Assembly (NCBI GenBank): GCA_973895155.1
Contig: OZ316892.1
Coordinates: 16,296,357-16,360,356 of the forward strand
DNA from: Marsupella aquatica
Lineage: Eukaryota > Plantae > Marchantiophyta
Direction: 5' to 3'
DNA: 64,000 bases
In this document: one piece after another, positions 2,258-60,636 of the stretch
How positions within the stretch are numbered: the stretch's first letter is position 1
Layout: each line of letters starts with the position of its first letter
The notes under the pieces: generated by a model
What the model saw: the letters and a program-made list of their open reading frames with translations, nothing else
Databases searched by the model: none
Told to the model about the DNA's origin: nothing
Made by a program: the position numbers and the translations under genes

Positions 2258-2370
2258 TGTGGATATACAGTAAACTTGAAAAGCTAAGATTGAGTGCAAA
2301 TTTTTAAATTTTCTGGTCGCTAAAGTTTAAGTTCACTTAAACTTACATTTTTTACGCCTTTTAGTAAGAT

Positions 2371-4709: not shown

Positions 4710-4724
4710 TCCTCCTACAACAAG

Positions 4725-13971: not shown

Positions 13972-14043
13972 CTGTGTTGCTTCAGAATTACTTTATTACA
14001 CATCCTTCCCCTCACTAATGTCCATGCAAACAATTCACATTAC

Positions 14044-35600: not shown

Positions 35601-36636
35601 AATACTTTAGTTTGCTGAGTTTAGGGTTATTGTTAAGTTTCCGCGACTACGACTTTACGATCTTATGATCTTATGATCTTACGAACCTACGCTTTTACGA
35701 ATTACGATCTTACGATACTACGGTAAACTTAACTTAGTTAGTTTTAGACCTTTTCATACTTAGTTTTCATTTTTGACTTTTTGAGGGTTTTGAAGGGTCA
35801 TGACTCTTCAACCCCCAAGGGTTTTTCCTCGATGTTTTTCACTATAAGTACCTTCCACTTCTAATAAGCAGAAGTAAGTAAGTCAGACATGACTTGTCGC
35901 CCATTGGTGTTGTCCTTGTGATTTTGGACTTTTTGAAGTTCAGAGTAGGCAATCCTAGGAGGGACTTACCTCCTTCTTGTATTTTGGAACCCAAATACTT
36001 GAAGTAAAACCTCAGTTATGAATCTCGTGAATTATAATGTCAGATTCCGCTTTGGTGACACATTGTAATCTCACAAGTTCTTAGAGTTAACCCATTGAGT
36101 TTAAGTTGCATTGGAAATGATGTTTTCACCTTCATGTTACTTAGTACCATCTAAATGCTGAAATATTTATCCTTTTAGATCTTGACTAAGTATCACTTAG
36201 GAAGAAAGGTCAAGACATGTTGCCGGCATTTTAAAAGGATACTCTAGTATGCAGTTTAGATCTGAAAAGCTGTGTGGATTTGAATTCCCTTAAAGTCATT
36301 CCATTATTGCTTATGTCTAAGGAGTAACCTTGGTATATTCCAAACTCCCTTAAGCATACTCTAAGAGATTTTTCCTTGTGTTTTGTTAATTGCAACCTTT
36401 TGCTTAATTGATGGTTATATGATGTTGAGTTATCATCAAAAACTGCTCATCGCTGTGGAGCGATCTTCAAAGTACCTAATTAAAGTAGTCAAGATTGATT
36501 ACTATGTGTGACACAACAGCTTAAAGCTTTATTTTTAGTTTATTACATCAAACCAACCCAATCTTGTTCTTAACGGGAACGAATATCGAGTTTAGAGACG
36601 TAAAAGAGTTCTTTTGGTTCTCTATAGCAAACTACA
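32652..36636 (+). repeat. 3' LTR of element B (3985 bp)
   Basis: Near-identical to 2258-6218, followed by the TSD AAGAG. Confidence 0.95.
33010..35127 (+). pseudogene. 3'-LTR copy of the B LTR-encoded gene with a premature stop
   Basis: Near-identical protein to 2592-4709, with CAG>TAG at 34021-34023. Confidence 0.85.
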
Positions 36637-38266: not shown

Positions 38267-38336
38267 AAAACCCTTAGCATGAGGAAAAAAAGAGAAAATC
38301 AGCCTATTCATTAAAAGTGTATTATTATTTGATTTA

Positions 38337-38661
38337 TGTACATTTGGGCAATGAAAAGTGTACTTTTGGGCTTGGAAAAGTGTACATTTGGCCAATGAAA
38401 AGTGTACATTTGGGGATAGAAAAATGTACAATTGGCCCAAAGAGTGTACATTTGGGCAATGAAAAGTGTAAATTTGAACATCAAAATAGGTACATTTGGC
38501 TTTAAAAGTGTACATTTGAGTACATTTGGCCTAGAAAGTGTACATTTGAGTGAAAAATGCATACATTTGGCTTAAAAAGTGTACATTTAAGTGCATTTGG
38601 TCTAGAAAGTGTAACTTTTAATGCAACAAAGTGTACATTTGGCCTAAAAAGTGTACATTTG
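38337..38661 (+). repeat. Left subterminal ~22-bp repeats (AAAAGTGTACATTTGG core)
   Basis: More than ten degenerate copies are visible directly. Confidence 0.9.
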
Positions 38662-38912
38662 CCTACCAACTCTTCTTATAATCATTTAAAAGAAAGGAAT
38701 GAATAGAAAAATATTTTTAATTATGTAGAAAAAGCAAACATTCATATTCATAATGATCAAAAGTTTAGAAAATGAGGAGATAGTATCAAATTAAAACTAT
38801 TAGAATAGTAAATAACTAGTACGTAAATTACTATGTTTGAATGAGTGACTATCTTAGTTACATAAAAACTAGTAACTATCTATTTAATTATTATAGCTTC
38901 TAACAACTAAGT

Positions 38913-41900
38913 CTACTTGTCCATCCTTTGAAGATAATTTTGGACAGTTTGTAGAACATTTCGAGGGATCTTCAAACCTCTGCCCGCCATGTTTTCTTCT
39001 TTCATTCCAGATTTAAAACCATACATTACAGAATTTGCATACTGCCAATGTTGAGTATTCTCACCAAACCCTAGATCTCGTTCCCAGTGGACATGAAACA
39101 ATTTAGATACCGCGCACTCTCAGTCACATCAAGTTTAGAGTGTTTAGGCCTCCACCATTCAACTGGGAACATTGGAGCGTACTGTCGAGGCAGAGAAGGG
39201 TTTGTTGAAGATGTAGTTGGGACTTCATGCTTTGGGTCCACCAAACCCAAAGCTCTCACCAACCAGAAATGACCTCCACCATTTTTATTCTCCCAATCAT
39301 CCTCGGGTCGAAGAAATACAAAGTTTCCTTCACAAATATCCTGTAAAGGAATCCATCGTCCTTGTTCTCTCTCAGCTCGAGATCCAACAAATGGTGTTGC
39401 TTGATCTTCCATCTCTTCCAAGACCTCATTTTGAAGAGCCGTTATCTCTGCATTCTCCTCATCTTCACTTGGAGGACCACTTTGTTCCGGTTGGTTGACC
39501 TTGTAACCAGTGCCGTGGTTAGTCTTAGGCCAAAATCTGTTTTTCAAGGGAAATTGAGTACTTCCCTCCCCTTCTAGTGCGAGCCCATTTGTCAACAACT
39601 TCACAATTCTCTCCCAATATTTCACAAGAGGAAATCTTTCCTTATATGCTATAGATGTCTCATCAGTGCAACTCCTTCTCAAAAATTCAAGGTACTTGTT
39701 AAGAAATGGGATAATCTCTTCAGATTTTTTGTGTATCTCTCCAATGGATTTAGCTAAGGGCTCTCCACTAGGTAAAAGAAGAGAATTTGTTGTCAGATCT
39801 GTTGCCCAAATGCACCTTCCACCAACTGGAGCCCAAGCTTGCTTTACATGGGACTTATACTGAAATATTGGTACATTATCTCTCATAGAGAAAAGAAATG
39901 ATACAGGTTTTGAGTGACCTTGAATATCTTTCACCTTGAAAGTTTGAAGATATTCTTTGTAAGATGCAACTTCTTGTATCAATCTGGGAACTGGATGAAT
40001 GCTCTCGCATTCCCATACCTCTGCCATAAGAGCAAGGAGGGTTGCAACTTCTTTGTGCTGAACTTGATATGATACCTTTGAAAAGAGTGCATCAACATCT
40101 TCGTGCGTATGACCAACCATTAGAAAAGACATTTGAACAGTTTCAAATACTCCTCTACTCACAAGCTCGCTACAAAATGCCATGACAGTCTGGTTTTTGT
40201 TGTCCTTTGCTGAATTATCCATCTGCAATGTTAGGTGCCTTGGCAAGGGCTTGAACGATGGACTGCCTTGCTCTCCTTGCATGTCTTCTCCTTCATCCTC
40301 ATCTTGTTGGTTTGGGACGGTCTCAGTCCGACTCTCAGCTCCATCTTCAGAACCAATATACCTATTCATCGGTATATTCTTTGGTTCCAAATAACCCGTC
40401 AAAAATGCTTCAAAGTCAAGTAGGGCTTGAAAGAAAGGTCTGTGAGGTTCCCAATGAAGGCCATCCAACATGTCACCTGTCTTGTCTCCATTGTACTCTT
40501 CAAGGTCTCAAAGACACTTAGCCAAGGATGTCACTGTGAAATCGGCATCTCCTGGCCAAAGGCCAGTGACACTAAAGTGTGCATAAACTCTTGGATCCCT
40601 CCCGTGGGTCAACATCCCTGTGAGAGCAATAGGTAGCGGCATTCCATGACCCGAAAGAGATTTAGGAGTACTAACCATTTTTGGAATCCATGTCTTTGCT
40701 TGATCCATCTTGTCGTGAATAATGCAAAGATATTCTCCTGGGTGTTGTTTGGCCATCACTCGATGAGCGTAGTAAACATATCTACGTGACATTTGCTCAT
40801 GAAGATGTTGCGCTCGCTTTTCTTCAATTTGAGCACGTTCTTTTTTCCTTCTTTCTCGCATCAAACTGTCTTGTATTCACAACAAAGAGTACACTTGGCA
40901 AATGCACCATCTTTATGAAAACTAAAGTTTGCAAATGAGTTGCTCCAGATCTTGTAGAGAGTATTCTCTATGACAGGAGGAAGCCCTTCTTCCTTCATCT
41001 TTGTTCTCACATCTTCCAGAATCTCTAGCTTCTTGTAACACGCCGGAAGACGGTACTCAGTAGAGTCTGTCCCATGTGCCCCTCCATAAGGCATATGAGG
41101 CATGGGCTCTGCATTTCGAGTCAAAAAATCCTCCAACAGAGCTCGTGCATGCAAGGTATTTGCCCTTGTTTTCATCAAGCCCGTATTGCCATGGAACCCA
41201 ATTTTGCAACCCTCCACATATCTCCTTTTGTAATCATAATATTTGGTGTGGCTAAAACCGTGGATAATTGCAAATGCATGTCTGCATACGACCATACCCT
41301 TAAGAACATGGTGTCCCTTATCACGAACATCATCCTCTCTATAGTGAAAGAGGTTGAAAATGTGTGACGTTTTTGACTCGCTTGACATCCCATGAAATTC
41401 CATCCTAATATCTTCGATGTTTTCCCTTGGCATAATGAGACAACATTTTTGCTTGCAACAATTTTCTCTTTTCACGTCATCAATTGACGCCTCTGTTGTT
41501 TTTGAAATTGCCTTGGTTTCCAACAACCTCCTCTTCTTTTCATTAGGATCTACTTGATTCCTCTTGTTGAAATTGTACGGCCTTGAACACAGTACTCCTC
41601 TATCACTTACATCCGCATTGAGTTCATCCCTATCCATTGAGTCCATCCTCTCAGAACCTTCCACCAAAATGTCTGACAAAAATTTTCCATTTGCAACTAG
41701 TTTTGTTGAATCAATCCGCCATCGAATCAAACTCACTACTCCCTTGTGGATGTTGGGAAAGTATTGTGCTGCCACGACATCTTTCACAGCAATCCCAACA
41801 TGGTCATCACCAAGAATTTCATCATCAACTGCTGCTGTCACTTGAGGGACAGTGATCGTTCCAGTGGCAACCATTTTGGTTCGATCCAAACCAGTGTAGA

Positions 41901-42684
41901 GTTCAACCAACTCTGACATCCAGTTTGCCCGATGAAAATAGTCACACCTAGTGTCCGTGGTGTTCGCCAAACAAGACTGTGAAACAAAATTTGCCTTGTC
42001 CTTCTGCTTCTTAGAGGAAGATTTGTTGCTCCCATCAATATCAACATTCCATACTTTATTGTGGACGTCAACCACATCCCATAGAACCCAGGAGCCCTTT
42101 GCCTCTTCAATTGTTGTAGCTCCACCATGTGCGTAAGGTAAAGTCTTACTACCATGGATCACATCTGTGACTTTTACACTAACCCGAGACTCACCGAGTA
42201 ATATGTTATGACATCTCTCCATTGGATCGATCTTGAAAACAACTCCAAAGGCCACACAATGGCCAGAGATAAACATTTCAACCTCATCGCCTGGCCTTAG
42301 GGTGGTCGAAGCATCCTCCTCTACATTTGCAAAATTATGGATGTTGTTATCTTTTTGAGTCGAACAACTACCAATACTGATGCGTTTTTGAGTAATCTTA
42401 TCCGCAGATCGATATGCACATGACATATCCCAAATGACACATGAGTCAATGGCATCATGAAGATTTTCTGCCCTAGGCATTGGAAAAGGGAGCTTCCTAG
42501 TCTCACCAAAGGCCTTCTCAATGAGAACCCCAATTCGATTCTCTCCCAGCACAATATTTTGAACACTCTCTCGCGGATCTGTCTTTTGAACTGTCCCATT
42601 TCCAACGTCGTAACCATCGATTGTCAAGGTAACATCATCGCCCCTAGAAAACCTTTGAGACATCCTTTTCCTATTTTCCTGCAC
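38913..42684 (-). pseudogene. Sola-like DDD transposase with three N-terminal En/Spm-TNP1-like repeats; frameshifted
   Basis: Motifs CCKQKC, VCRHAFAIIHG, FAKCTLC, IIHDKMDQAK, LQMDNSAKDNKN and FLMVGHTHEDVDALFS. Frameshifts near 40862 and 39095; TGA at 40508. Confidence 0.75.
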
Positions 42685-42749
42685 ACTGAAAAAAATGGAT
42701 TAAAACCAACCTCATGCAAATTTTGATTCAGACTACTATCCTCCAATTT

Positions 42750-43565
42750 CGGATTTGGACTAGGACCATCCGAGTTCGGATTTGCACCGGGACCATCCAA
42801 GTCTAGATTAGGACTGCAATCCTCCGAGTCTAGATTTGGACTACGATCCTCCGATTCTGGATTTGGCCTGGGACCATCCGAGTCTGGATTTGGACCGGGA
42901 CCATCCAAGTCTAGATTTGGACTGCAATCCTCCGAGTCTGGATTTGGACTACAATCCTCCGATTCTGGATTTGGATTGGGACCATCTGAGTCCGGATTTG
43001 GACCGGGACCATCCAAGTCCGGATTTGGACTGCAATCCTTTGAGTCTGGATTTGGACTACAATCCTCCGATTCTGGATTTGGACTGGGACCATCCCAGTC
43101 CAAGGTTGGACTAGGACCATCCCAATCCAAACTAGGACTTGGACCATCCCAATCCAAACTAGGACTTGGACCATCCCAATCCAAACTAGGACTCGGACCA
43201 TCCCAATCTAAACTAGGACTTGGACCATCCCAATCCAAACTTGGACTCGGACCATCCCAATCCAAACTAGGACTTAGACCATCCAAGTCCAAACTAGGAC
43301 TCGGACCATCCCAATCCAAACTTGGACTCGGACCATCCTAATCCAAACTTGGACTCGGACCATCCAAGTTCAAACTTGGACTCGGATGATCCCAATCCAA
43401 AGTTGGACTCGGACCATCCCAATCCAAACTAGGACTTGGACCATCCAAGTTCAAACTTGGACTCGTATGATCCCAATCCAAAGTTGGACTCAGATGATCC
43501 CAAATGAATGCAAACTTGGACTAGGACCATCAGAATCCAAACTTGGACTAGGACCATCCTAGACC
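42750..43565. repeat. 27-bp tandem array of the palindrome TTGGAYTNGGA-CCA-TCCNARTCCAA
   Basis: Unit such as ggactcggaccatcccaatccaaactt, about 30 copies. Lies between a minus-strand GTGAGT donor (43766) and a polypyrimidine-CAG acceptor (~42680). Confidence 0.92.
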
Positions 43566-44099
43566 AACCCATGATGTAATGGGAGATAAACTTCAAACAT
43601 CTTAAGCTAAGAAAAATCCAAATTTAGGAAGACCCCGTATTTTACGGATCTCCCTAGATATGGTGTAGCCTAAAGTTTGCGTGGTCTTAAGGCAGACCCT
43701 AATGTCTACATACAGTTTCATGAAATAATGGAACCTTATATTTGAATGCATTAACCTTATACTCACCTTAGTATTAAGATCTGGTAGAAGATGAATATCA
43801 CATCCAAGGGGTATACATTGTTGTTTGAATAATGGTAAAAACTTCCCAGAAGCTTGAAATACAAGCTATATGCCACTAAATCTTGGGAGTAAAAAACAAA
43901 CTGAACCCTAAACCACACATGTCTGTAAAAGATAAACTGAGAGGACTCCAAAAGTCAAGAAGCTGGCTAAGCTGACCCAATGAAGGTAAGTGGCTCAATA
44001 CATAACACTTTAAGAGAAACTCCACTCCGGATTACATGGAGCTTAGATTTGGGAAACTAGAACAAGAATGAGCTCCGAAGTGGGCGTCTCCCAAATTAT

Positions 44100-44614
44100 A
44101 CCCTTTGCTCGAGTCGGCTCAACCGGAAATCGCGTGAAGATAAGGGTTGAGTACGCGTTCACCTTAGCTTGCGGACACACCTTATCTTCACGAGCCTATT
44201 TGCGCGGGGACTACCATGGAAGGCTGTTAGGTAGGTAGGACATCAAGGAAGGAGGCCGTATGCAAGGTGAGGGCAACGGGCCGTACGCCATAGCAGGCCG
44301 TATGCAGTAGAAGGAGGCAACCGGCCGTACACAGGCCGGGGTGAGGCAGTAGGGGGTAAAGGGACGGAGAGGTCCAGCCAGGACCTCATTCTCATTCTCT
44401 CACTCCTCGCTCTCTCGCTCTCTCGCTCTCCTCTTGCTCTCCTCCTCACTCTCTTGCTCTCCTTGCTCTCCGCTCTCTCTCCGCTGTTCGTTCTCTCTCT
44501 GCCTCCCCGCCTCCGCCTGCCTCCGCCTTCCACCTTCCACCTCCATTCTTTTTTATTGCCCTAGATCGGACGCCTGCTAAGATGCCACGTGTCACGCTGC
44601 CACGTGTTAGAAAG
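44100..44614. promoter_or_regulatory. Probable divergent promoter region between the transposase and the ParB-MTase gene
   Basis: GC-rich, with a CT-rich tract at 44387-44550, two GCCACGTG G-box/ABRE motifs (44584, 44599) and a 13-bp inverted repeat (44133-44145 / 44180-44192). Confidence 0.45.
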
Positions 44615-47600
44615 ATGGAAGCGAATCGCGTCCTTGTGATGTCCTACATGGAAGAAACGGAGGAGTTTGACCTCTCCTCTATGAGCGACAGTGTGGAACT
44701 TGCACTCGAAGACTCTAGACAATTTCAATCACGAATCCCTAGTAAGTATCTATCACCTATCCTCCCTAAGTCTTAGAGGACTGGGACCATCCGAGTCCAA
44801 ACTTGGACTCAGACCATCCCAATCCAAACTTGGACTCGGATGATCCCAATCCAAAGTTGGACTCGGACCATCCCAATCCAAACTTGGACTCGGATGATCC
44901 CAATCCAAAGTTGGACTCGGACCATCCCAATCCAAACTTGGACTCGGATGATCCTAATCCATCTGGGAGATTGAATCCCGATTGTAGGAGCAAGTCTAAA
45001 ACCATCTCAAGTTGGACTAGGACCATCCTAATCCAACAAGAGTTATTCGAATGTTTTAAAGGTTTCAAGTCTAACATGGATGACGTTTATGATGCAGGGA
45101 GTGATCTTGTTGTTTTCAAACCCGTGATTGCACCGACCCACTGCCTGGACGGATTCTTACTAGATGAGAGATCCCCACGCTTTCGATGGGGGCTTGAGTT
45201 CTCAAGAACCCCGCTTAATAATGAAGTGCCATCAACCACGATTGAACCTGTTTTGACCTTAAAGTGCAGAGAAAATGATAGCCTGACTTTTGTTTGCGGA
45301 CCTGTGGTCTCTATTGGCATTGGAGGGAGAGGGATGAATACGGTCATTCTCGAGATGCATGATAAGTCCTATTGGGTTAAAGTTAACCTTCTGTCAAAGG
45401 CATACTCCTCTGAATTCAATGTCGAATGGCACGCAAGTGGGGAATTGAGCATTTTGTCAATGGGATTTTTTCCAAAGACCTATGACACAAAGAAGTTGGT
45501 TGCCGGGGTAACTGGTATGCTTCCAGTCGACATTATGTATGGGTTTCAATATTTGAAACTCAACATGATGAAGCACCAAGGCAATTTTTCTTTTGCAACT
45601 ACCTGGACGTTAAGCAATTTACTTGAGAAAGCTGGATTGTTATCGTTGGAGTCGGAGGAGCCTGGTGTTTTAATTGATAAGGATGTTGCATTTGCTCCCA
45701 AGTTTGATTTAGTCAAAGCAAAGCAATGGATAGAATCTTTGTCCAAGATGAGAAAGCTTCCAGCGGTGAATACAAACCCTGTGCCCGAGAAAGCGCCAGA
45801 GAAAGCTCCAGAACCTACAACAGAGACCGCGGGAACTACAGCAGCGACCTCTCAAAGAGCAGTGGGAAGACGAAAACAAAGCCAAAGGAAACCTCCGGTT
45901 GAGAAGAAACTTCCGGTTGAGAAGCCGAGTACGAGAAGCCGAGTTGACAAGCCAGTTGACAAGCCAGTTGACAAGCCGAGTACGAGAAGCCGAGTTGAGA
46001 AGCCAGTTGAGAAGAAACGTCCGGTTGAGAAGCCGAGTGCAAGTGAAAAGAGACCAAGACAGAAGAAGAAACAGAAAATTGATAGTGCCATCATGGATGA
46101 CACTACAAAAAACCTGACAGTGCATTCACAAGATGTGGACGAGCAGTTGGACGCTCCTGAGGAGAAGAAGGTCTTAGAAGGTAATGAGGTATTGCAACAA
46201 ATGGAGCAATATTATACGTTTGGGATCAATTCGATATTTTCTATTCCTGTAGACAGTATTTTCCCTGCGTCGGCAAGACTCTGTTACAGAATGTTGAATG
46301 CAGAACATGTAAAGGAGGTGGCCAATTCCATGATAAGAAATCCGGGGCATGAACCACACATAGCAGACTTGATTCCTTACACTACAAAACATAGAAACCT
46401 AATGCAGTATGACAACACAGAATCAGATAGGAGGGACTTTGTAGCAGCCGTGAAAAAGGGCGAGGTTCAATTCCTTGCCATTAGCGGTCAACATTCGGCT
46501 AGAGCAGCCAGATGGATTCGAGAATGGGCAAACAAGGATGCCAAGCTGACAGCATTGGCGAAAAAGCTGGAATTTCAAAAGTCAAGAATATTATCTCATC
46601 GAACACCATCGTCAATATTAGTTGAGCATTCAATGCGATCTAATGCGATCAATAGCACGATGGTGTTTCAGTCATGCTTCAAAGATACAGTCGTTCATGC
46701 TAGGCGACAATTTGTGGAATGTGGAAAACCTAGCCGGCCAAAACATGGGGACAACAAAACAAACGCTCAAGACAATCAAAAATTTCAGGTACGAAGTCTT
46801 ACTGCTTGATGGGTACAATACCGTAGATTCATGCACATTCAGTAGAATATTTCCACTGATATCGCCTAGTTTTGTGTTGGACCGGGATGGTCCCAGTCCA
46901 AATGGATTCATGCACATTCAATAGAATCTTTGTCCATTGATATCGTCTAGTTTTGTGTTGGATTGGGATGGTCCCAGTCCAAATGGATTCATGCACATTC
47001 AGTAGAATATTTCCACTGATATCGCCTAGTTTTGCGTTGGACTGGGATGGTCCCAGTCCAAATGGATTCATACACATTCAATAGATTATTTTTCCACTGA
47101 CACTGTCTAGTTTTGTTCTGGACTGGGATGGTCCCAGTCCAAACTAAATCATGCACATTCAATAGAATATTTCCACTGATACTGTCTAGTTCTGTGTTGG
47201 ACTGGGATGGTCTCAGTCTGCACCTGAGTGCTATCAAACAATTGAGTTATGGAGAACTAATAGACTTTCCTTTGCAATTGTAGGATTGGTTGGCTCTTGC
47301 AAGAATGACCATGGGAAGGAAAGATTGTCGAAATGTTTACTGGTTACTGTTTGCGGACGATGCTCTTTTTGAGTTATGGAGTTTGGTATGCCAGTTGTGG
47401 TTGGATGGGAAACTTCCCGATGGAGCTGGGGTAGAAGGAAATGAGAAGTCTGAAAAAGCAATTACTGTTGCCATGTTTCGTTGTTTTGATGGTGAGTTGA
47501 TCTCACAACGAGACATCACAAGAATACTGACGCGGGTGAAGTCAGGAAAGGTATTGCTAAAGAAAGATGCCTCTAATAAATCAGACATGCCATCTATAGA

Positions 47601-49668
47601 GGAGTTGGCCAAAGATGTGAAGATCGTGCGGAAACTGAAGTCCCTTATTGAAGACTACTATTGCACCAAAGATGCGGTGAATTTCCTGGCAAATACTAAT
47701 TGGGGGAAAGTAGTGGAGGTTCTTCCTACGCTAGCAATTGATTCAGAGTTCAGCAGGTGTCGAAGAGCCGTTGGCGAGGTCTATCTTGCCAACCTTTTAA
47801 AACCAAATCATACGTGGGAGAGCGCAATCTTGCCGACGGCATTGGCATTCCGCCTAGATGATATATACTGCCAGAAATTTGGCGGAGGATCACGTTCTCA
47901 GACCCTACCATGGGCTACATTTTTTAGCGACAATCTCATGAAGACCATTGATCCAGAGTCATTGCAAGAAGCTCCTCCGACCTGCCCTCTTGCCATTGTT
48001 GATTTTAGCCGGCTTCCGCAAAAACAATGGACTGAAGCAGAGATTCTTGTTCTCTTTGAATACATTGTGGAGCTTCCACAAAATCCCATGATTGTTGTGA
48101 CGATAACAGTTCATCCTGGACAACTTGCATTGAATGTCCATGGTGCCCTTCGTAAACTGGGACAAGAGAAAGCTTTGACCATTCACATTGAGTATGGGAG
48201 TTATTCTCGAGATGATCAACCGCACCCTCATGACTCATGTTGGGGTGGGGGGATTGAAGAAGTTATCTTTGCGGGGATTTCTCGAGATGAAGACGTCAAT
48301 TGGAATGAAGTTTTCAAGCCCAACTATCCAAAGCCAAAATTCTTGTATACTGCAAAGGATGTTGATTACGAAGTATGCAAGATCGACAAGGGAAAGGGGA
48401 AGGCTAAGGAATCAGATGAAGGGACACAAAACGACGACCTAAAAGTGGTTTTGGACCCGGAAGAGGCCGTCAAGATTATGAATATGGCCCCTCGATTTGA
48501 GACAGTTGGCAGTCGCGGAGGGTGGGTTAATCCTCATGCCAAACCCACGCGGATGATCCGAAGGATTATTGAATCCTTGTCAGAACCGGGAGATTTGGTT
48601 CTAGATTTTTTCTCCGGTGGCCAAGTCATGAAGACATCATTTTTTTGCGATAGGGAATGCTTTGTTTATTGTGACTCTCACTCCGAGAGGCATTTTGTGG
48701 AAGCTTTTGCTTCCTACCTTTGCGAGAGAGTTCCCTCACTTAAAGCTCATTGTGAATCACTTGCTGAAAATTCTCGACAATGGGCTACCATTGTTGCGGC
48801 TGTAGCTGTCGCTGTTGAATCCGATGGTTCTGAGTCTGAAGATGTTGCTGACAAAGTGGCTGAAGGCGTAGAGGCATCAGAGGAGGCATATGTCATGAAT
48901 TTGGATGACCGTGTTGGTCAAGGTGAGCCTTACGATGTAGATGATGATATTGGACTTGCACCAAACCGTTCATCTGGTTTAGATGACATCCCTCCGGGGC
49001 CCAATGAAGTTCAAGTTGATGATAACTTGGACAAGGATGATCCCAATCCAACAACGCCGGGAGGACAGATGGAGCAACTGGAAGGAGCAAGGGTTCATAC
49101 GTTTGATCATCTTTCTTCAACCAATCTGATCAATGAAGGCGCAACGAGGCTCGGAGATTCAAATGAAGCTGAAACTAAAGAATTGACTCGGGGGGAGACC
49201 AAGGGGGAGACTGGCGGATTGCCTGACATTCCGATCAATCCAGGAGGAAATGCATCAACAGTTGCTGACAACCAGGCAGGTGCTTCAACTTGTCCTGACA
49301 CACTCTTTTCAGCTTCTGATGACAAATTGGTGTTCGTTCGTTCACACTCGGGGAGTCCTCTTGTCCTTCCGCTCTCAAAAAAGAAAGGAAATAGAGTTGG
49401 ATCAACTGGATGGAGGTCATTGGAATGCGACGCACGATGTTACGTGTGGAAAAGTGGGCCAAATCGAGGCCAAGAAATATCATTGGATGCTGCTCATTCA
49501 ATTCTCAATAAGGAGGAGTATAAGAGTGGAGAATTGGGGTTGATAACTCCTATTTGGACTTCACCTTATTGGGTAGAACAAAGTACTTCAGATGTCAATT
49601 TTGAAATCCAACAGGAGCTTGGTGCTGACATGATTATTGATGAATACGGATCTCTTATTTTGGAATGA
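44615..49668 (+). CDS. ParB/Srx-like domain fused to a beta-class N6-adenine/N4-cytosine DNA methyltransferase-like domain (predicted exons 44615-44741, 45062-46788, 47284-49668; ~1412 aa)
   Basis: Both GT-AG introns keep the reading frame. ParB-like: IPVDSI..R.LNAEHV..VANSM..FLAISGQHS. MTase-like: FFSDNLM, LAIVDFSR, NPHAKPTRMIRRIIESLSEPGDLVLDFFSGG..DRECF. Confidence 0.75.
44777..45036. repeat. Second 27-bp palindrome array (predicted intron 1 of the ParB-MTase gene)
   Basis: Same unit as 42750-43565. Confidence 0.88.
46827..47220. repeat. Five ~79-81-bp tandem units, each with the palindrome TTGGACTGGGA-TGG-TCCCAGTCCAA (predicted intron 2)
   Basis: Units start at ~46827, 46906, 46987, 47066 and 47147. 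The core is the 27-bp-array motif in the opposite orientation. Confidence 0.9.
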
Positions 49669-49885
49669 AATTCAGCCTTTGACTTTGTATTTATTCATAT
49701 CAATCTAAAATACTTCTCGGTCTCACAGAATGCGCTCAAGAATTAAAGTCTCCATATCCGTCTACACATTGTGAGGCTTCTAAAAATGGTATGTAGGTTA
49801 ATTTTCTTTTTTGTCAGCCATTGTCTTGTATTTTTGGACTGAGACAATCCTAATCCAAAGTTCACTTTTGGTCTTTTCTCTAAGA

Positions 49886-50944
49886 ATGGTGTTTGGTGCA
49901 CTTGCAAAATCGAGACCTGGTCCCCTCAAGCGGAAGTTGCTGATTTTGGACCTTAATAAAATACTTTGGGATTCTATTGAATTCCAAAGCAAGGGCACAT
50001 CCAGGAATATTGTTACCTCAAGTGGAGTGCATTGGGATAGATCAAATGGAACTAGTCGCATGTATACAGAGAGGCCACGGCTCCATGAGTTTCTAAAGTT
50101 GGTTTTTGACCGGTTTGACGTTGCAATTTGGACATGTGCTGGGATGCCGCGAACAGTGAAAATGTTGAACATGATGTTCACAATTGAGGAGCGGTTGAAA
50201 CTGAAGTTTGTATTCACACAGGTGGAAGCCTTTGACACAGGCATTCAAAGGTGTGACGTTACAAATGGAAAGGCAAATGTGCTATTGAAGGATTTTCGGG
50301 TGGTATGGAGTGCATTTGGAAATCTATATGATGAAACCAACACACTCCTTGTGGATGACTCCCCCTTGAAGGCATTTGCCAACCCAGACATGACCGGACT
50401 ATTTCCAGTGCCCTACACGCATGCCAATCGTGGAGACAATTTTCTTCTAACAATTCTTTGGCCATGTCTTGAGAAACTGTCACATGCAAGTGACATTCGT
50501 TGTTATCTTCTCCTAAACTCTCCAAAGTGGTCTCTATTGCACATTAAGAGAGACAAGGCAAAAAATGAGATTACTTATGATCAACTTAGTAAGAGATGTG
50601 CAGCAAAAATTTGGAAGTCACAGTATAGGCATAGTGTGCTGGACCTCAATAACAATGAGATTCCTTGGGCTGTGAAGCACCGTATATGTAGCTTACGTCC
50701 TGAGGTGGAACTTGACGATGCACTTGTCACCTCACTTGCTAGATCATTTGTAGGACGGGAATATTCAGGTCTATATAGAGAAAATCCCAGACATTTTTTG
50801 CGGGAGATTATAGCAGTTAGGAACAACACCACCAAATTTCATCTCCCTGAAGATAAAGGGAGTTGCAACCGTGACATTAGGGTAGATAGTAAAGGAGACA
50901 AAGGCACGTGCTCAAATAAATATTGTAAGGAGCACTTTGTTTAG
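49886..50944 (+). CDS. FCP1/SCP (NIF) family HAD phosphatase-like protein, intronless
   Basis: Motifs KRKLLILDLNKILW, ERPRLHEFL...FDVAIWT, LKDFRVVW and NTLLVDDSPLKAFANP. Confidence 0.88.
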   Translation: MVFGALAKSRPGPLKRKLLILDLNKILWDSIEFQSKGTSRNIVTSSGVHWDRSNGTSRMYTERPRLHEFLKLVFDRFDVAIWTCAGMPRTVKMLNMMFTIEERLKLKFVFTQVEAFDTGIQRCDVTNGKANVLLKDFRVVWSAFGNLYDETNTLLVDDSPLKAFANPDMTGLFPVPYTHANRGDNFLLTILWPCLEKLSHASDIRCYLLLNSPKWSLLHIKRDKAKNEITYDQLSKRCAAKIWKSQYRHSVLDLNNNEIPWAVKHRICSLRPEVELDDALVTSLARSFVGREYSGLYRENPRHFLREIIAVRNNTTKFHLPEDKGSCNRDIRVDSKGDKGTCSNKYCKEHFV

Positions 50945-51200
50945 AGATCTGACTCATGTTAAGCGCATTAGATAGTAAAAATGGGTGTCAGCCCTGGATA
51001 TTCATTGTAAGTTTGGACACAATTGTATATAATTATTTTCACACATTATCAATCAATGGTCCTTGCCTGGGCTTCTTTGTGCGGAAATGTTTTTACAAGT
51101 ATGATCTCTATCCCATGGTTCTTTGTGAACTAATAAATAATATAATACTATTATAATTAATATAATATAATATAATATATTAATATAATACTAATAAGAT

Positions 51201-51289
51201 TTGGCCTATAAAGTGTACATTTAGGTATCAAAAAGTGTATATTTGGGCTTCGTAAAGTGTACATTTGGGGACATAAAAGTGTACATTTC
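51201..51289 (+). repeat. Right subterminal AAAGTGTACATTT repeats
   Basis: Four copies, in the same orientation as the left-end copies. Confidence 0.85.
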
Positions 51290-51337
51290 AGGACTGATTT
51301 GTGAACAAAAGAAAATACACTTTTAATGAATAGGCTG

Positions 51338-52190
51338 ATCCATCCTCGAAGGAACAAGTACATAATCCTGGCCACTGATTATGCAACTAAGTGGGTGGAG
51401 GCCAGGCCGACAATGAAGGATGATGCAATTACTACGGCTCAATTCATGTTTGAGCAGATCTTCACCAGGTATGGCGCACCACTAGAATTAGTTAGTGATA
51501 GAGGAACCCATTTTCTGAATGATATAATTAGTCGTTTAAATAAGCAGTATTTAGTTAGACATAGGCCTACTACTCCTTACCACCCAAAGGCAAATGGGTT
51601 GACAGAACGAGCCAATGGAATTGTAGGAAAGATATTAAATAAGACCGTAGCCCAGAACAAACTCAATTGGGATGATAAATTGTTTGCTGCTGTTTTTGCT
51701 TACAATTTAGCCTATAAATCCACTACCGGTCATACACCCTTTTTCTTAACATTTGGACAGGAAGCTCTGGTACCCATGCAACTTGAGATTCCTACATTTC
51801 AAGTTACAATTAAAGAGAGAGCCTCAGAGGAGGAAAGCCTAGAGGAGCGAGAATATAGATTAGAAGCTTTAGAAGAGGCCAGAATAATTTCAGCCGAGAG
51901 AGTAGAATATAGACTAAATACCATGAAGCAACAGTATGATAAAAAGTTGAAACCAGTTAGTATTCACACATGAGATCTTGTATTACTTTACAACAGTAGG
52001 TATAGTAGATTTATTGGTAAACTTTACACTCGCTAGTTAGGACCCTTCAGGGTAGCCATGAAGTTCTCCAATGGCTCCGTGCAATTGGCCAACATAACTA
52101 GAGAGGTGTCCCTAGTTCGCATTCACTATGACCGCCTCAAGATATACTATATGGACAAAGATGAAGTTGTTCACGAGGACGCTTCACAAT
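51338..52190 (+). pseudogene. pol: Integrase C-terminal fragment of a family-A Gypsy element
   Basis: YIILATDYATKWVEA, SDRGTHF, NGLTERAN, then a degenerate GPF tail with stops. Confidence 0.9.
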
Positions 52191-52204: not shown

Positions 52205-52578
52205 TGTGATGCCTAGCCAAGAATCACTAGGCCAGTTTAAATGGTAAAATCAGGAGTGTACCCTGGAAACACATTAGTATAGTAACAAAAACACGGAAAA
52301 TATAAACAATTAAGGGTGATTATGGAACCCGAGCCGAGGCCGGAAGTTAGGACATCGGGAGAGGGAACACGATTAGGGTTAGGGTGTGCTAAGTACAGGC
52401 AGCTATGGGTAACTAACAGGAAGGAAGACCAGGCAGGGGGGTAAGGATCGATCGCAAGGAATGGTGGCTCATTTGCAAGCACGAACTAAGCAGACGACTA
52501 TGTAAAGCAACTACTGTTAGCTGCTTAGGCAAGCACTTGGGGAGGGAGCAGATACCGACTATCAATTCAAGGAAGGGT

Positions 52579-55500
52579 ATGAGCAACGTCAATCAGGCTG
52601 CTCATTTTTTGGGATGCCTGTTAGAACGGGCAACTGAGTACATTGGGACCTACGAGGACGAAGAATCGGAGAGAGCCGCTCAAGAATGGCAGGAGCTTGC
52701 TCGATTGTGGGAGCTGCAAAACTTTGCCTTCTTAGGAGGAGAACTCATCACGGCTGAATTCCTGTGGACACCTACTGGCAACAAACTTGACGATCTTCTA
52801 TTTTGTGAGAACAGAGTAGTTGGCATCCGGGAAGCCATCAACCGCTGCAACAACATACACTGGGAGTTGAAGGGTAGCACGGAGGGGTGGACAAAGGCAA
52901 CTGTGCTAGGAGAAACATCCACGGCAGCAGCTATGAAGAGGAAAGGGAATGCCAACGAAGTGACCACCCCTGCAAAGAGAACGAGGTCGGTGGCACCAAG
53001 GAAGCCAGCCGAGCAAGGGAGCAGGAGGCAGGACGAAGCCGAAGAAGAGGAGGTTGACCCCATCAATGTCGTTCCAACAAGAGATGACACCTGGAAAGGT
53101 TGGGCGGCGACCCTCCCCGAGGAACTGCAACTACACTTTGCAGGTGAAGAGGATGCATGCTTTACGGCTATGCAGACTCGGAAGTACCAGGGCTTCATAG
53201 CCGGATCCAGCTTGGAAGCTTTTGTGAAATTACCATGGCTGAAGCCGATGGTGCCGGATTCAAACTTATTAGAATTTGTGGGATCATGGGAACCTGAGAC
53301 CCATTCCACAAGGGTCTATGGGAAGGATTTCTATCTCACTCCCCGGGTGATTGCCAAAGTGTTTGGCTTGCCGATGGGCAATAAGACCAAAGTAGATACT
53401 TGGAAGACCTTGCCAAACAAGGAGTTCCGATCATTTCCAGGGCCATCAACAAAGAATGGCTTCTTTCGGAACACCTGCACCAACCTGCACATAGGAGAGA
53501 TCATCGATTTCTTGCGGATAACCATGCACTGCAACTTGCCAAGGCCAAAGATTGGCAAGGCACAGGTCTACCTAGCGGAAAGGCCAGACCCAAGCCGGGA
53601 CTACAACGGGTACCTCCTCACCCAACTGAAGAAGATCTTGAAGGAGGAATAGCAGGCGATCGGCATGGGAAGCGTGTCCCGGCTTGGCTATCACATGCCG
53701 CTGTTGTGCCGGTATGCCCAAAGTCAGATCTTTGCCCCGGTACTTCCACTGCAAGCAAGGGCACCAGAGGAGGTTCCGGAATAGAGGCCGGCAACAAAGA
53801 AACCAAACCAGCTTGACAGACTTACAATCAAGCAGGTGTTTAGGCCGAGGACGGAGGACTTGCCGATGCAGCAACCAGGCATGCAGAAATTGTTGGAGAA
53901 GGAAAAGAGAACGACAATGGCAACGGCACAGGTACAGGACACTCCTTCAAAGGTCAGCCTAAGCCGACTCGATCATGAAGGAAAACCCCTTTACCGGAGC
54001 CAAGGAAAGAAGGAGGCCGGAACACGAGCCGGTTGTTTGAATATATGTAGGAGCCTCGAGTCTTGTAGCTGAGGGAAGGCAGCCTAAGGCTCCTGTTTAG
54101 GGGAAACAAAGGGAGAAGACAGCCTGGAAGCCAGAGGAGGAACTAGGACCTGCTAGCTATGATCGGCAAGACCAGGGGAACAGTCGGGGGAGCCGGTAGT
54201 CCAAGCAGTGGAGGAGGCGGTGGAGGACTACGGCAATGATGACTCCGGCTACGGGTCGGACCATCATGTCCCAGGAATAAGGACCTGTGGCCGTTTCATC
54301 CCCCGCTTCCAAGAGTAGTTCGAGGGGACCCCACCCAGCTGAACAGCCCCGAGTCCCGCCCGAGCTTTAACGGCATAAAACAGATGGCACAAGAGTTTCA
54401 AGAGCGACTCAGGGAGGGAGAGAGGGCAACCCTGGCTAGGGAGAAAGATTTACCAGGGGGAGAATGGCCAGAGGACATCAGGCGCCTTGCAGAAAAACAA
54501 AGTAGCCCTCCAGCCACGATAGAAGAAATCCGCAAGGCGGCTTGGGAACAAAGGCCACGATGGTTGATGCCGATGACTTCTACTCACTCCACCTATGCTA
54601 AAGAAAGAGCCATGGAATACGGGGAGATGTGTGGAGAACTTGCGCTCAGCATCTTTGGGGAGGAGTTGGAGCAGGGACCTTTTTCCACAGGGAGATGTTG
54701 GAAAAACGCCGATTAGAAGAAGCGGTGGCTTTGGAGAGAAGAAAGAAAGATGAGGTCATCCATCCACCTAGGGCAAGGGAAGCCAAGGTGGAAGACCTGA
54801 AGGCGGCCAAGAAAGCCCAAGATGAGCTATAGATTAAGCGGCATGAGCTAAACATCATGCAAGGGCAATTGGATACCGCTCAGTCTGATAATCAGATTAT
54901 CAAGGATAAACTGACTTGGACCCAGGGGAGTTGGCCGTTGCGGTCAAGGAAAGGGAGAAGTGGAAGCGGGAGCTGAGGGACGCAGAGGAGGCCCACATAG
55001 CAGCCAACAATCGGGCAAGGAAAGGGAGAAGTGGAAGCGGGAGCTGAGGGACGCAGAGGAGGCCCACATAGCAGCCAACAATCGGGCCATGGCGGAGACT
55101 CAGAGAAGGGAAAGGGCATTGAAGGGGGAACTCAAGGATATCCGCGGAGCCCTTGAGCAGAAGGAGGCCGAGTTAGGGAATCCTATCAAGGGATTATTGT
55201 GCTGCAGCAGAAGCTTGTATCCCTGACGGCCAGCTTCAAGGCCGACCTGCGTGAGAAAGACGACCAGCTCGATCAGACTTATGCCAAGATGAATAAAATG
55301 GAGTCTGAGGTCGTAGCGGAGCTCGACAAGGAGCTAAGAGCAACCCAAGAGGAGAGGGCTACCTTAAAGAAGGAATTGGAGGAAGCCCAAAAGGAGCTCG
55401 AGGAGGCGCGCAAGGACCTAGATGAAGTGCAGGAGGAGTTGGAGGAAAGCACGAGGAAGATGGAGAGCTTACAACGGCGAGCCGACAACCAAACGGAGCG

Positions 55501-55771
55501 GCTAAAGAAACAAGATGCAATATTTAAGTACTTGGCTTCATCAAGTCCAATTGGGGCAACCAAGTTGCCAGGAGTAGTACTGGCCGAAGGACAAGCTGCG
55601 ACACTTGCACCGGTGCCGGAGATAAGTGGCAAGGGAAAGGGACCAGCTGCCAAAATAGGGAAGAAGAAGAAGCGGAAACCTTCTGGGTCAGGGAGTAATG
55701 CGGCTTCTCAAGCCGTCGTGACAGAGGAGGTACAACCAGCGCCAACCTCAGGCACAATCACGGTGGATCCA
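52579..55771 (+). pseudogene. Family-A LTR ORF, copy 2, disrupted
   Basis: Starts at ATG 52579 (MSNVNQAAHFLG). PMD-like core, coiled coil and KKKKRK motif. Carries stops, frameshifts and a 71-bp duplication. Confidence 0.75.
54945..55087 (+). repeat. 71-bp tandem duplication
   Basis: caaggaaagggagaagtgg...aatcggg occurs at 54945 and 55016; single in the other two copies. Confidence 0.9.
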
Positions 55772-58700
55772 TGTGGTGCGTCCCCTGCCTCCCCAAACCC
55801 AAGAAACCCCCTTGCTCAAGCCGATTCCCGCAGGTTTCGTCCTTGGCAAGGCCTTTTCCGCGGCTTAGCGGCATGGGACGCTGCTAACTCTCCTTCAACT
55901 ACTTCTATTAACATTTTACACACATATACTAGACAGATCCTTCGTCGGGTCATGAGATACTTAGCCGGCCTATTCTAGTCCCTCCCTTGTATTCCTCTCC
56001 TGGTCTTCCATTAGGTATGTTTGGATTCCGCCGCCGGAATGATCCCCAATTGGCTTGGTTAAGCTGCTAAGACCTCTCTCAGCTCGACACATCCAACTCT
56101 CACTCCCCTGCTTACTTCTATTCCTCTATTAGTTGATGTGGGCACTCTTCACATAAGTTAATGCGACACACAAATAGCAAAATGACTCCTTCTGACTGAG
56201 TTATACCATGCACTTGCCATACAAACAGTACATCTCATACACAAGCTCTATGAACTAAGCCGTGAGGCCAACTCTATTCAGTTCTTAAGTATGAGGAAAC
56301 ATGAATATACACAAGGGTCATTGTATAACTAACCGAGAGCTTCTCTTACTACTTGATCCCAGCCCTGCTGGTGCAACTAGAAACTTGCTAAAGAAGAGGC
56401 CCTGAACTCCCCGCAGCCCAGGTACTTATCTTGGTTGTGGATCCGCCTAATTCCTTGCAGCGTAAGCCTAATCTACCTACTGTAATCTACCTATGTACAG
56501 CGAGGTAGGAGCACAAGTGTCGTCCACACCCGTGGATCCAAAATCCCACTAATCTAAGTGTCAGGGCCGTCTCCTGATCCTGATCCTAAGTCTAAACTTG
56601 GAGATCAGCGCCCACTCACGCCTCCTACCTCCACGTCCGCCCTCCCTAAAAGGGACGGTGCGCTTACACCGTCACGACACCGGTGGCTGGTCCTCAATGG
56701 ACGCCCCCAACGCTTCCTCCGCAGCCACTGCCGTTGGTCCGTCCTCTGGCAGATTACCTGCCCCTGACCGAGTCAACTCGATCTTCATCGGCCTGACTGG
56801 GTCCACCCTCGGCTTTGGCCTCAGCATCGGTCACGGCCTCTACTACGGCTACGGCCTCTGCTACGGCTACGGCCTCTAATACGGCTACGGCCTCCCCGAT
56901 ATGTTCTAGTGGAGGATCCGGTACCTCGGCAGCATTACTGGTTCTCCCGGCCTCGGCCTTGCCATCTCCACTTCCTAGGACTGGTGGATCCACCGCCGTG
57001 CCGATGCCGGAGGTTGGTGCCAGGTTTATCTTCTCGATCACAACGGCTTGAGAAGCCGTATTACTCCCAGACCTAGAAGGTTTCCGCTTCTTCTTCTTCC
57101 CTATTTCGACAGCCGGTTCCTTCCCCTTGCCACTTACCTCCGGCACGGGGGTGAGTGTTACGGCTTGTCCTTCGGCCAATACTACCCCTGGTAACTGGAT
57201 TCCCCCAATTGGAGTTGGACCTGATGAAGCCAAGCATTTAAATACTGCGGCTTGTGTCTTCAGCCGCTCCGTTTGGTTGTCGGCCCGCCGCTGTAGGTTC
57301 TCCATCTTCCTCGTGATTTCCTCCAACTCCTCCTGGGTCTCATCCAGGTCCTTGCGCGCCTCCTCCAGCTCCTTATTGGCTTCCTCCAATTCTTTTTTCA
57401 AGGTAGCCCTCTCCTCCTAGGTTGCTCTTAGCTCCTTGTCGAGCTCTGCTACGACCACAGACTCCATCTTATTCATCTTGGCATAAGTCTGGTCGAGCTG
57501 GTCGTCCTTTTCATGCAGGTCGGCCTTGAAGCTGGCCGTCAGGGACGCACGCTCCTGCTACAGCGCAATAATCCCTTGATAGGATTTCCCTAACTCTGCT
57601 TCCTTCTGCTCAAGGGCTCCGCGGATATCTTTGAGCTCTCCTTTCAACGCCCTCTCCCTTCTCTGGTTCTCCGCCATGGCCCGATTGTTGGTTGCTAAGT
57701 GGGCTTCCTCTGCATCCCTTAGCTCCCGCTTCCATTTCTCTCTTTCTTTGACTACGCCGGCCAACTCTCCTAGGGTCCGAGTCAGTTTATCTTTGATAAT
57801 CTGATTGTCAGACTTAGCGGTATCCAACTGCCCTTGCATGATGTTTAGCTCATGCCGCTTAATCCGCAACTCATCTTGGGCTTTCTTGGCCACCTGCAGG
57901 TCTTCCACCTTGGCTTCCTTCTCCCTAAGCCGCCGGATGACCTCGTCCTTCTTGCTTCTCTCCAAAGCCACCACTTCTTCTAATCGATGCTTTTCCAACA
58001 TCTCCCTTTGGAAAAAGGGTCCCTGCTCCAACTCCTCCCCAAAGATGCTGAGCGCCAGGTCCCCACACATCTCCCCGTACTCCATGGCTCTATCCTTAGC
58101 ATAGGTGGAGTAACTAGAAGTCATCGGCATCAACCACCGTGGCCTCTACTCCCAAGCCGTCTTGCGGATTTCTTCTACGGTGGCAAGAGGGTTGCTTCTT
58201 TTTTCGGCAAGCCGCCTGATGTCCTCCGGCCAATCTCCTCCTGGTAAATCCTTCTCCCTAGCCAGGGCTGCTCTCTCTTCCTCCCTAAGTCGCTCCTGAA
58301 ATTCTTGTGCCGTCTGCTTTATGCCGTCAAAGCTCGGGGGAGCAACCTCTGGTGGGGGAGACTCGGAGTTACTCTGTTGGGTGGGGTCCCCTCGAACTAC
58401 TCTTGGAAGCGTGGGGATAAATCGGCCACAGGTCCTTACTCCTGGAACATGATGATCCGACCCATAGCCGGAGTTATCATTGTTGTAGTCCTCCACCGCC
58501 TCCTCCACTACTTGGACTCACGGCTCCTCTGCCTCTGATTTGGGGCTTGAGGCTCCCACGTACATTCGCACTCCCGGCTTGTGTTCCGGCCTCAATCTCT
58601 CCTTGGTTCCGGTAAAGGGGTCTTCCCTTCTGAGTCGGCTTAGGTCGACTTTTGGGGCAGCGTGCTGTATCGGTGCCATTGCCAGAACTGTTCTCTTTTC

Positions 58701-60408: not shown

Positions 60409-60636
60409 ATCCACCCCTAGAAGGTGGGGATGGTAAGGCCAAGGCCGGAACAATCAGTGATGAAGCCGGGGTATCGGATCCTCCACTAGAGCATGTCGGG
60501 GAGGCCGTAGCCGTATTAGAGGCCGTGGCCGATGCTGAGACCAAAGCTGAGGGTGGACTCAGTCAGGCCGATGGAGAGTTGACTCGGTCCGGGGCAGGTA
60601 ATCTGTCAAAGGACGGACCTACGGCAGTGGCTGCGG

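What the first reader, a model, noticed from the sequence alone, without database searches (positions are those of the whole stretch)
46230..48680. Prokaryote-style ParB plus N6A/N4C methyltransferase architecture in a spliced plant TE gene
Seen: ISGQHS at 46480-46497 within a ParB/Srx-like context, and NPHAKP..IRRIIESLSEPGDLVLDFFSGG at 48529-48621. The latter matches the beta-class HPxxKP...S.PGD.VLDPF.GSG signature. Known: ParB-MTase fusions are common in phages and conjugative elements; horizontally acquired N4C methyltransferases exist in bdelloid rotifers (N4CMT) and Marchantia (DN4MT1). Inference: a bacteria-derived module has been intronised and is carried by a plant transposon, possibly related to the origin of plant 4mC enzymes.
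Basis: partly seen in the sequence, partly recalled or inferred. Interest (0 to 1): 0.88.

Follow-up and report, generated by a model that had tools for sequence, protein, structure and literature searches.

The report
Liverwort transposon ParB pseudo-methylase helper gene
A 13-kb plant jumping gene carries a second, likely spliced gene whose product is predicted to join a bacterial-type ParB fold to a DNA-methylase fold that lacks the standard catalytic motif, and the element holds 42 copies of its own palindrome that this protein likely binds, a probably non-methylating land-plant version of helper genes already reported in seaweed transposons.

Summary
The gene (1411-aa model, three exons) lies inside a 13.0-kb terminal-inverted-repeat DNA transposon (38298-51339), back to back with a broken DUF7869 transposase. 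Predicted folds match ParB (Z 9.4) and beta-class amino-methyltransferases (CcrM, Z 18.4). A 31%-identical relative has intron 2 at the same position, and 9 relatives run across that junction. The catalytic motif IV reads DFSR: Asp is kept in 33 of 36 relatives, PP(Y/F/W) in 0 of 36. Motif I is one residue short and the ParB arginine is Ser, so this is most likely a pseudo-methylase. It lacks the SPPY of DN4MT1 and N4CMT, so the proposed link to plant 4mC enzymes is not supported (no tree with DN4MT1 was possible). A 25-bp palindrome occurs 42 times, all inside the element and 40 outside coding sequence, like VANC target arrays. Binding and function are untested. ParB-methyltransferase helper genes are already published for Ectocarpus Sola1, and ParB helper genes beside inverted-repeat arrays for Bostrychia Plavaka. 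Verdict: real, and a new land-plant, motif-degenerate variant of a known kind.

The parts
38298..38331 (+). Left terminal inverted repeat of the element
   Evidence: 34 nt, 91% complementary to 51306-51339; contigs from all four runs begin at 38298, with unlike loose ends in X3 and near-zero depth at 38270-38296
38337..38665 (+). Left subterminal 22-bp repeats (AAAGTGTACATTT core); likely transposase-binding sites (inferred)
39071..42699 (-). DUF7869-family transposase gene, broken in this copy into three ORFs (frameshift near 40870, in-frame stop at 40508-40510)
   Evidence: PF25273 E 9.8e-39 and 0.0087; ORFs; other copies differ by an indel at 40870
42731..43567 (.). 27-bp-period array holding 26 copies of the 25-bp palindrome, upstream of the transposase ORF (probably a 5' intron; inferred from splice consensus)
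44582..44741 (+). Exon 1 of the helper gene (inferred)
   Evidence: open model, GTAAGT donor; no homologue or RNA support
44742..45097 (+). Intron 1 (inferred), with 8 palindrome copies
45098..46788 (+). Exon 2: conserved N-terminal domain of unknown fold, basic repeat-rich linker (45754-46170), ParB/Srx-fold domain, start of a helical region
   Evidence: homologues 47-61% identical over the ParB part; coordinates
46234..46659 (+). Predicted ParB/Srx-fold domain; motif ISGQHS (46480-46497) has Ser where ParB has Arg
   Evidence: model pLDDT 80.6; VIA Z 9.4; top 8 of the wide search are ParB/Srx-type chains; BFVD E 4.9e-4
46789..47283 (+). Intron 2, GT..AG, phase 0, 495 nt, five 81-bp repeats each with one palindrome
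   Evidence: same-position 109-nt intron in L001; 9 proteins align across the junction
47284..47904 (+). Conserved all-helical region between ParB and MTase; candidate DNA-binding part (HTH not shown)
   Evidence: model; hhalign against ParB HTH not significant; best VIA hit Z 5.6, a designed protein
47905..48750 (+). Predicted beta-class amino-MTase fold: motif IV strand LAIVD-FSR (47989-48012), NPHAKP (48529), DFFSGG (48604); no PP(Y/F/W)
49315..49668 (+). Small conserved C-terminal domain ending in EYGS, after an acidic low-complexity linker
   Evidence: alignment; no Pfam or PHROG hit
49802..50944 (+). Third gene: NIF/HAD phosphatase-like ORF with DLN instead of DxD
   Evidence: PF03031 E 5.3e-15; motif; annotated in one protein with the MTase-like part in P0075, P0121, P0146 (P0075 is Riccia)
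51199..51339 (+). Right subterminal repeats and right terminal inverted repeat (51306-51339); a Gypsy integrase fragment follows

Best explanation
This is the helper gene of a multicopy 13-kb plant DNA transposon: its likely spliced product joins a predicted ParB fold to a predicted beta-class methyltransferase fold that lacks the standard catalytic motif, and it likely binds the element's own 25-bp palindromes and would help keep the family transcribed and mobile, probably without methylating DNA. Shown in the sequence or by calls: the element ends, the gene order (transposase and helper gene divergent, then a NIF-like gene), the open reading frame, the missing PP(Y/F/W) across the family, and the confinement of the palindrome to the element. 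Predicted: both folds. Inferred: splicing (intron 2 well, intron 1 weakly), a dimer reading the palindrome as ParB reads parS, the methylase fold acting as a binding or scaffold module, and an anti-silencing or activating outcome like VANC on VANDAL. My odds for the steps: architecture 0.9, no methyl transfer 0.65, binding to the palindrome 0.6, anti-silencing role 0.45.
For: Folds. Motif loss: a global profile alignment puts LAIVD-F on the DPPY strand of 53 phage MTases; D in 33 of 36 rows, PP-aromatic in 0 of 36; no [DNS]PP[YFW] and no DxFxGxG in 0 of 166 fetched proteins; the motif II Glu of the phage profile aligns with Cys here. N4CMT loses activity when SPPY becomes APPA (PMC8885841 passage). 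Palindrome: 42 copies, 0 outside the element in 64 kb, 40 of 42 outside coding sequence, 0-2 in each of 20 simulated windows. A second, different repeat marks the ends, leaving the internal one for another protein (inference). Unit of movement: in run X3, contigs over the left end, transposase, ParB and MTase have similar depth (363, 455, 383, 431) against 18-19 for diverged copies (depth is only a rough guide). The helper ORF is intact while the transposase has two lesions. Precedent: VANC binds tandem motifs in introns and intergenic DNA (PMC5735166 passages); Bostrychia PAG3 lies beside inverted-repeat arrays.
Against: No binding, expression or activity data. Conserved residues (motif IV Asp 43 of 46, motif X Lys 51 of 54, motif I Gly-Gly 46 and 44 of 50) show a maintained pocket that could still be catalytic. 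A ParB-type HTH was not detected by profile alignment, and the ParB arginine is Ser, so CTP clamping is doubtful. Arrays can arise by slippage without a ligand. The one distant locus with DNA (L001, 1.8 kb) lacks this palindrome (best 9 mismatches), so pairing of protein and site across families was not shown here. Earlier unreviewed notes read other elements of this genome as active methylases.
Confidence: 0.45

Rival explanations
1. The methylase fold is active with a non-canonical site (D-F/L-S/T-R/H) and, guided by the ParB part, writes 6mA or 4mC on its own element.
For: Motif IV Asp, motif X Lys and DFFSGG are strongly conserved down to about 20% identity. The whole fold is kept, mean pLDDT 89.5. 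The same role is proposed for the Ectocarpus protein.
Against: 0 of 36 keep PP(Y/F/W), motif I is one residue short and motif II has no constant acid. I recall no active amino-MTase with this motif IV (recall, not a search).
Confidence: 0.2
2. The protein is a structural transposition helper: it loads on the internal palindromes and compacts or bridges the 13-kb element so that the transposase can pair the ends, with no effect on silencing.
For: ParB proteins bridge and condense DNA (established knowledge). ParB-type helper genes are reported in giant elements, and DUF3723, the nearest feature neighbour (0.93), is conserved Starship cargo.
Against: The arrays sit in the promoter region and introns, as VANC targets do, not near the ends. 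It does not explain why the methylase pocket is kept.
Confidence: 0.2
3. The gene is captured cargo with no tie to the palindromes; the arrays are minisatellites or extra transposase sites.
For: Arrays have 27- and 81-bp periods typical of slippage. No HTH was shown.
Against: Single copies lie far from the arrays (40307, 49027, 49834), the same motif sits in two unrelated repeat units, and arm symmetry is kept at several positions (42 of 42 at the innermost pair). MTase-to-NIF order recurs in Riccia.
Confidence: 0.1
4. The family is the transposon-borne source or sister of Marchantia DN4MT1.
For: Same beta-class fold and a liverwort-type host range.
Against: DN4MT1 has TSPPY and no added domains. 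None of the 166 fetched proteins has SPPY (63 of 213 weak hits were not shown). The motif IV residue here is Asp, as in N6A enzymes.
Confidence: 0.05

Closest known systems
Accessory gene of Sola1-1_Ec32, Ectocarpus (PMC12477816; passages, outline and supplement rows seen)
   Same: [quoted passage not shown]
   Different: Brown alga, 21.5 kb, AACCG termini, 282-bp TIR, 4-bp TSD. The passages seen say nothing of motif IV or palindromes. Here motif IV is degenerate, TIRs are about 34 bp and a NIF-like gene follows. Sequence homology was not tested.
Plavaka accessory genes PAG2 and PAG3, Bostrychia (bioRxiv 10.1101/2025.02.11.637652; passages; supplements closed)
   Same: ParB-like helper protein (their best hit 7BNR; mine 7bnk/7bnr) beside tandem arrays of inverted repeats; a PF01555 domain in the same element.
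   Different: There ParB is fused to a 2OG-oxygenase and the methylase to SET, in separate genes of an EnSpm/Plavaka element of red algae.
VANC proteins of Arabidopsis VANDAL elements (PMC5735166; passages)
   Same: Element-encoded helper; family-specific motif amplified as tandem repeats in introns and intergenic DNA; variable peptide repeats in the protein.
   Different: VANC motifs are short and arrayed in one orientation, and function is proven. No homology is known or was tested here.
Phage ParB-N6_N4_Mtase fusions (36 fetched; Atlas structure rows)
   Same: ParB-type domain followed by a beta-class MTase.
   Different: They keep DPPY and mostly FxGxG. Their ParB does not align to this one by profile. 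The plant family forms its own long branch in a 93-column quick tree.
N4CMT (bdelloids) and MpDN4MT1 (Marchantia) (passages)
   Same: Beta-class fold of prokaryotic type in a eukaryote.
   Different: Host genes with SPPY and proven 4mC activity; no ParB reported.
METTL14 and DIRS1-borne MTase domains (PMC4738411; passages)
   Same: Amino-MTase folds with disrupted active-site motifs, the latter carried by a transposon.
   Different: Different clades. A 2026 preprint (passages) finds Asn-Pro-Pro kept in most retrotransposon DAMs.

Membership tests
Beta-class DNA amino-methyltransferases (PF01555) | Circularly permuted Rossmann fold | tested here: met
   CcrM Z 18.4, rmsd 3.4, 217 aligned; the top 11 of 48,161 chains are of this class
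Beta-class DNA amino-methyltransferases (PF01555) | Motif IV strand lies N-terminal of motif I | tested here: met
   aa 853 against aa 1058; profile register
Beta-class DNA amino-methyltransferases (PF01555) | Catalytic motif IV (D/N/S)PP(Y/F/W) | tested here: not met
   DFSR; 0 of 36 relatives
Beta-class DNA amino-methyltransferases (PF01555) | SAM motif I FxGxG and acidic residue ending the next strand | tested here: not met
   DFFSGG is one residue shorter; the Glu column aligns with Cys/Ala/Ser. SAM binding itself is untested.
Beta-class DNA amino-methyltransferases (PF01555) | Methyl transfer to N6-A or N4-C | not testable with these tools
   needs an assay
Eukaryotic 4mC writers (DN4MT1, N4CMT) | SPPY motif IV | tested here: not met
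   against passages
Eukaryotic 4mC writers (DN4MT1, N4CMT) | Common clade in a tree | not testable with these tools
   no tool gave their sequences
ParB/Srx superfamily | ParB N-terminal fold | tested here: met
   Z 9.4, rmsd 3.0, 95 aligned; Foldseek PDB best E 3e-3; BFVD E 4.9e-4; model built from only 14 sequences
ParB CTPases | GxxR arginine of the nucleotide site | tested here: not met
   GQHS or RQHS in 11 of 11 relatives plus the window. Phage fusions with GNHT/GNGT also occur.
ParB CTPases | Central HTH DNA-binding domain | tested here: inconclusive
   helical region present; hhalign score 11.1, reached by 7 of 40 shuffles; ParB-N itself also fails this test
Algal ParB-MTase transposon helper genes | ParB-like and PF01555 domains in one ORF, divergent from a transposase inside TIRs | tested here: met
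Algal ParB-MTase transposon helper genes | Sequence homology to the Ectocarpus or Bostrychia proteins | not tested
   sequences not at hand
Sola2 transposons | SDGxxxQYKN and ATSHGK catalytic motifs | tested here: not met
   Sola2 alignment (PMC3627910 supplement file 2, part 1) against MDNSAKDNKN and VGHTHEDVD here; compared by eye
Sola1 transposons | 4-bp target-site duplication and Sola1-type DDD transposase | tested here: inconclusive
   the two flanks share no 4-bp duplication; the DN..NKN / GHT motif likeness to Sola1 is recalled, not tested

The most novel reading that the evidence does not exclude
Liverwort DNA transposons run a private parS-like recognition system: a ParB-fold protein docks on family-specific palindromes, and a re-engineered methylase pocket (D-F/L-S/T-R/H) either reads or shields methylated bases or writes an amino-methyl mark by a new chemistry, switching off host silencing of its own family only.
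Probability: 0.25. Interest if true: 0.85.

Novelty: new variant of a known kind. Interest (0 to 1): 0.5.

Why it matters
It extends a class of self-targeting transposon helper proteins, so far described in brown, red and green algae, to land plants. In this family the methylase motif is lost while the pocket stays conserved. The protein and a defined 25-bp candidate site lie side by side, so the open question of what these helpers do becomes testable in a liverwort. If it is an anti-silencer, it is a second solution beside VANC and a possible sequence-specific epigenetic tool. It does not explain the origin of plant 4mC enzymes.

Tried and rejected
No RNA holder was listed, so splicing and expression were not tested with reads. 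No whole genome was held. A homodimer-plus-SAM prediction gave no answer (0.31 against a mark of 0.32, controls not folded). A search for full-length relatives over 1000 aa found none (weak by the tool's note). tblastn against 50,697 phage records found nothing for either domain. Pattern scans of GTDB genomes, viral contigs and metagenomes gave no prokaryotic relative; one search gave one locus, L001, which has a spliceosomal-type intron. Profile alignments to 36 phage ParB-MTase ParB domains and to 74 GERR-type ParBs were not significant. Pfam gave no ParB or DUF3723 hit for 12 proteins at E up to 10. The tree is the quick version on 93 columns with 36 plant and 45 motif-selected phage rows; rows lacking the motif I block were dropped, and it names no donor. 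No target-site duplication was found: the right flank is a Gypsy integrase fragment and the left is 31 unique bases then an LTR-like end at 38266, so this copy may be recombinant. My ten paper searches showed no description of this family in land plants, but none listed the Ectocarpus paper, so they are not exhaustive. Bao et al. 2009 (Sola) and the Cell 2025 DN4MT1 paper were not held. bioRxiv supplements (Bostrychia Table 6) could not be seen and may list land-plant cases.
Full report
Observation. All three motifs are at the stated places. The model 44582-44741 / 45098-46788 / 47284-49668 gives 1411 aa. Intron 2 (495 nt, GT..AG, phase 0) is well supported without RNA. Nine of 166 fetched proteins align across the junction, among them annotated Calypogeia fissa and Riccia sorocarpa proteins and P0160, a 1009-aa ENA record holding ParB motif, MTase part and C-terminal motif in one chain. 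Locus L001, 31% identical, has a 109-nt intron at the same codon. Exon 1 rests on splice consensus only. No RNA run was listed.

The element. A 34-nt inverted repeat pairs 38298-38331 with 51306-51339. Contigs of all four public runs start at 38298, X3 shows unlike loose ends there, and depth is near zero just outside. Inside lie a DUF7869 transposase on the minus strand (E 9.8e-39; broken by a frameshift and a stop in this copy), the helper gene running away from it, and a NIF/HAD-like ORF (E 5.3e-15). In run X3, near-identical contigs over the end, transposase, ParB and MTase have depths of 363-455 against 18-19 for diverged copies, in keeping with roughly twenty copies moving as a unit (the tool warns that depth is no copy number). 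No target-site duplication is seen. The transposase is not Sola2 by motif; Sola1 likeness is recalled only.

The family. A profile of four exon-3 sequences found 213 proteins at E up to 0.001 among 1.84 billion representatives; 150 were shown. Of 30 looked up, 11 carry an organism name: 8 Riccia sorocarpa and 3 Calypogeia fissa; three more Calypogeia names came. The host range beyond liverworts is unknown. No prokaryotic or phage relative was found by sequence.

Methylase fold. Pfam PF01555 is passed on 29 residues and the family profile hits M.RsrI at 7.9e-9. The model (pLDDT 89.5) matches CcrM at Z 18.4 (rmsd 3.4, 217 aligned), PvuII at 15.7 and N4CMT at 15.6. Atlas structure neighbours of a Calypogeia homologue are mostly phage PF01555 clusters, some with ParB_N. 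A global profile alignment to 53 phage DPPY enzymes puts LAIVD-F on the DPPY strand, opens a one-residue gap in motif I and sets Cys against the motif II Glu. Of 56 aligned rows, 36 cover motif IV: Asp in 33, PP-aromatic in 0. None of 166 proteins has [DNS]PP[YFW] or DxFxGxG anywhere. Yet motif X Lys (51 of 54) and the DFFSGG loop are kept. In N4CMT the motif IV Ser, the Pro carbonyl and the Tyr shape the active site, and SPPY to APPA abolishes activity (passages). I read this as a pseudo-methylase with a maintained pocket (0.65); a non-canonical enzyme is not excluded.

ParB fold. The model (pLDDT 80.6, 14 sequences) matches M. xanthus ParB at Z 9.4. The top eight of 48,161 chains are ParB/Srx-type at Z 5.1-7.8 (superfamily assignment partly from titles, partly recalled), and viral ParB-like proteins score E 4.9e-4. 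Z values are modest and sequence profiles fail, so the call rests on the consistency of the hits. The GxxR arginine is Ser in all 11 relatives showing the motif. An HTH in the following helical region is not shown. By language-model features a homologue's ParB-plus-helical part is nearest to fungal DUF3723 (0.93, 143-151 of 256 features shared, a lead only), a conserved Starship cargo gene.

Palindromes. A 25-bp palindrome with 11-bp arms (perfect at 43079 and 47037) occurs 42 times at up to 6 mismatches: 26 upstream of the transposase ORF, 8 in intron 1, 5 in intron 2, and singly at 40307, 49027 and 49834. None lies outside the element, and 20 simulated windows gave 0-2 each. A different repeat marks the ends. 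This layout resembles VANC target arrays and the inverted-repeat arrays beside Bostrychia PAG3. L001 lacks this motif, as expected for family-specific sites but also for no link.

Mechanism. Most likely the protein docks, as a dimer, on the palindromes in the shared promoter and introns and keeps its family active, with the methylase fold as a binding or scaffold module. Binding and outcome are inferred. Rivals are an active odd methylase (0.2), a transposition scaffold (0.2), unrelated cargo (0.1) and a DN4MT1 source (0.05). All three cargo domains have altered catalytic motifs (GQHS, DFSR, DLN/DVE), which fits a shift from chemistry to binding.

What is known. Earlier unreviewed notes on this genome (20 fitting notes, 8 shown) pointed me to PMC12477816. 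Its passages describe a 1104-aa ParB plus N4C/N6A methyltransferase gene opposite the transposase of Sola1-1_Ec32, and cite similar proteins in green and red algae. I had found the palindromes and the motif loss before reading those notes. Several report the same layout in other elements, and two read their elements as active enzymes; I did not check them. The architecture and the self-binding idea are therefore in print. What my searches did not show in print is the land-plant family and its family-wide loss of motif IV.

Verdict. Real feature; first reading partly supported; new variant of a known kind; interest 0.5.

Noticed in passing
window 10182-21533 (-): A CACTA/EnSpm element (Transposase_21 E 4e-70, DUF4218, DUF4216, Transposase_24) lies next to ORFs with two BRCT domains (18209-18961, E 1.9e-13) and NSD-like PHD fingers (19674-20381), possibly chromatin-reader cargo. 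Element ends not mapped.
   Followed up: partly
window 49802-50944: The NIF/HAD-like gene has DLN here and DVE in four relatives instead of DxD, so it may be a pseudo-phosphatase; it follows the MTase-like part in Riccia annotation too.
   Followed up: partly
window 41700-42660 (-): The transposase N-terminus seems by eye to hold three copies of a roughly 70-aa unit resembling the end of the CACTA ORF at 10182-11036; blastp printed only self hits, so this is unconfirmed.
   Followed up: partly
window 38267-38297 and 51340-51973: The flanks differ: 31 unique bases after an LTR-like end at 38266 on the left, a truncated Gypsy integrase on the right. Both element ends read AT, which could be terminal bases or a 2-bp target.
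   Followed up: partly
window 45098-45760 and 49315-49668: Two further conserved domains of the helper protein have no Pfam or PHROG match and were not folded.
   Followed up: no
window 2258-6218 and 32652-36636: Two 4-kb copies, 98.7% identical, with a 717-aa ORF of no Pfam family; the second follows a Gypsy gag-pol (27405-32573), suggesting very long LTRs or an extra ORF.
   Followed up: no
window 1-2257, 36681-38266, 52205-64000: At least five fragments (83-89% alike) of one LTR-like family with coiled-coil ORFs, in both orientations.
   Followed up: no
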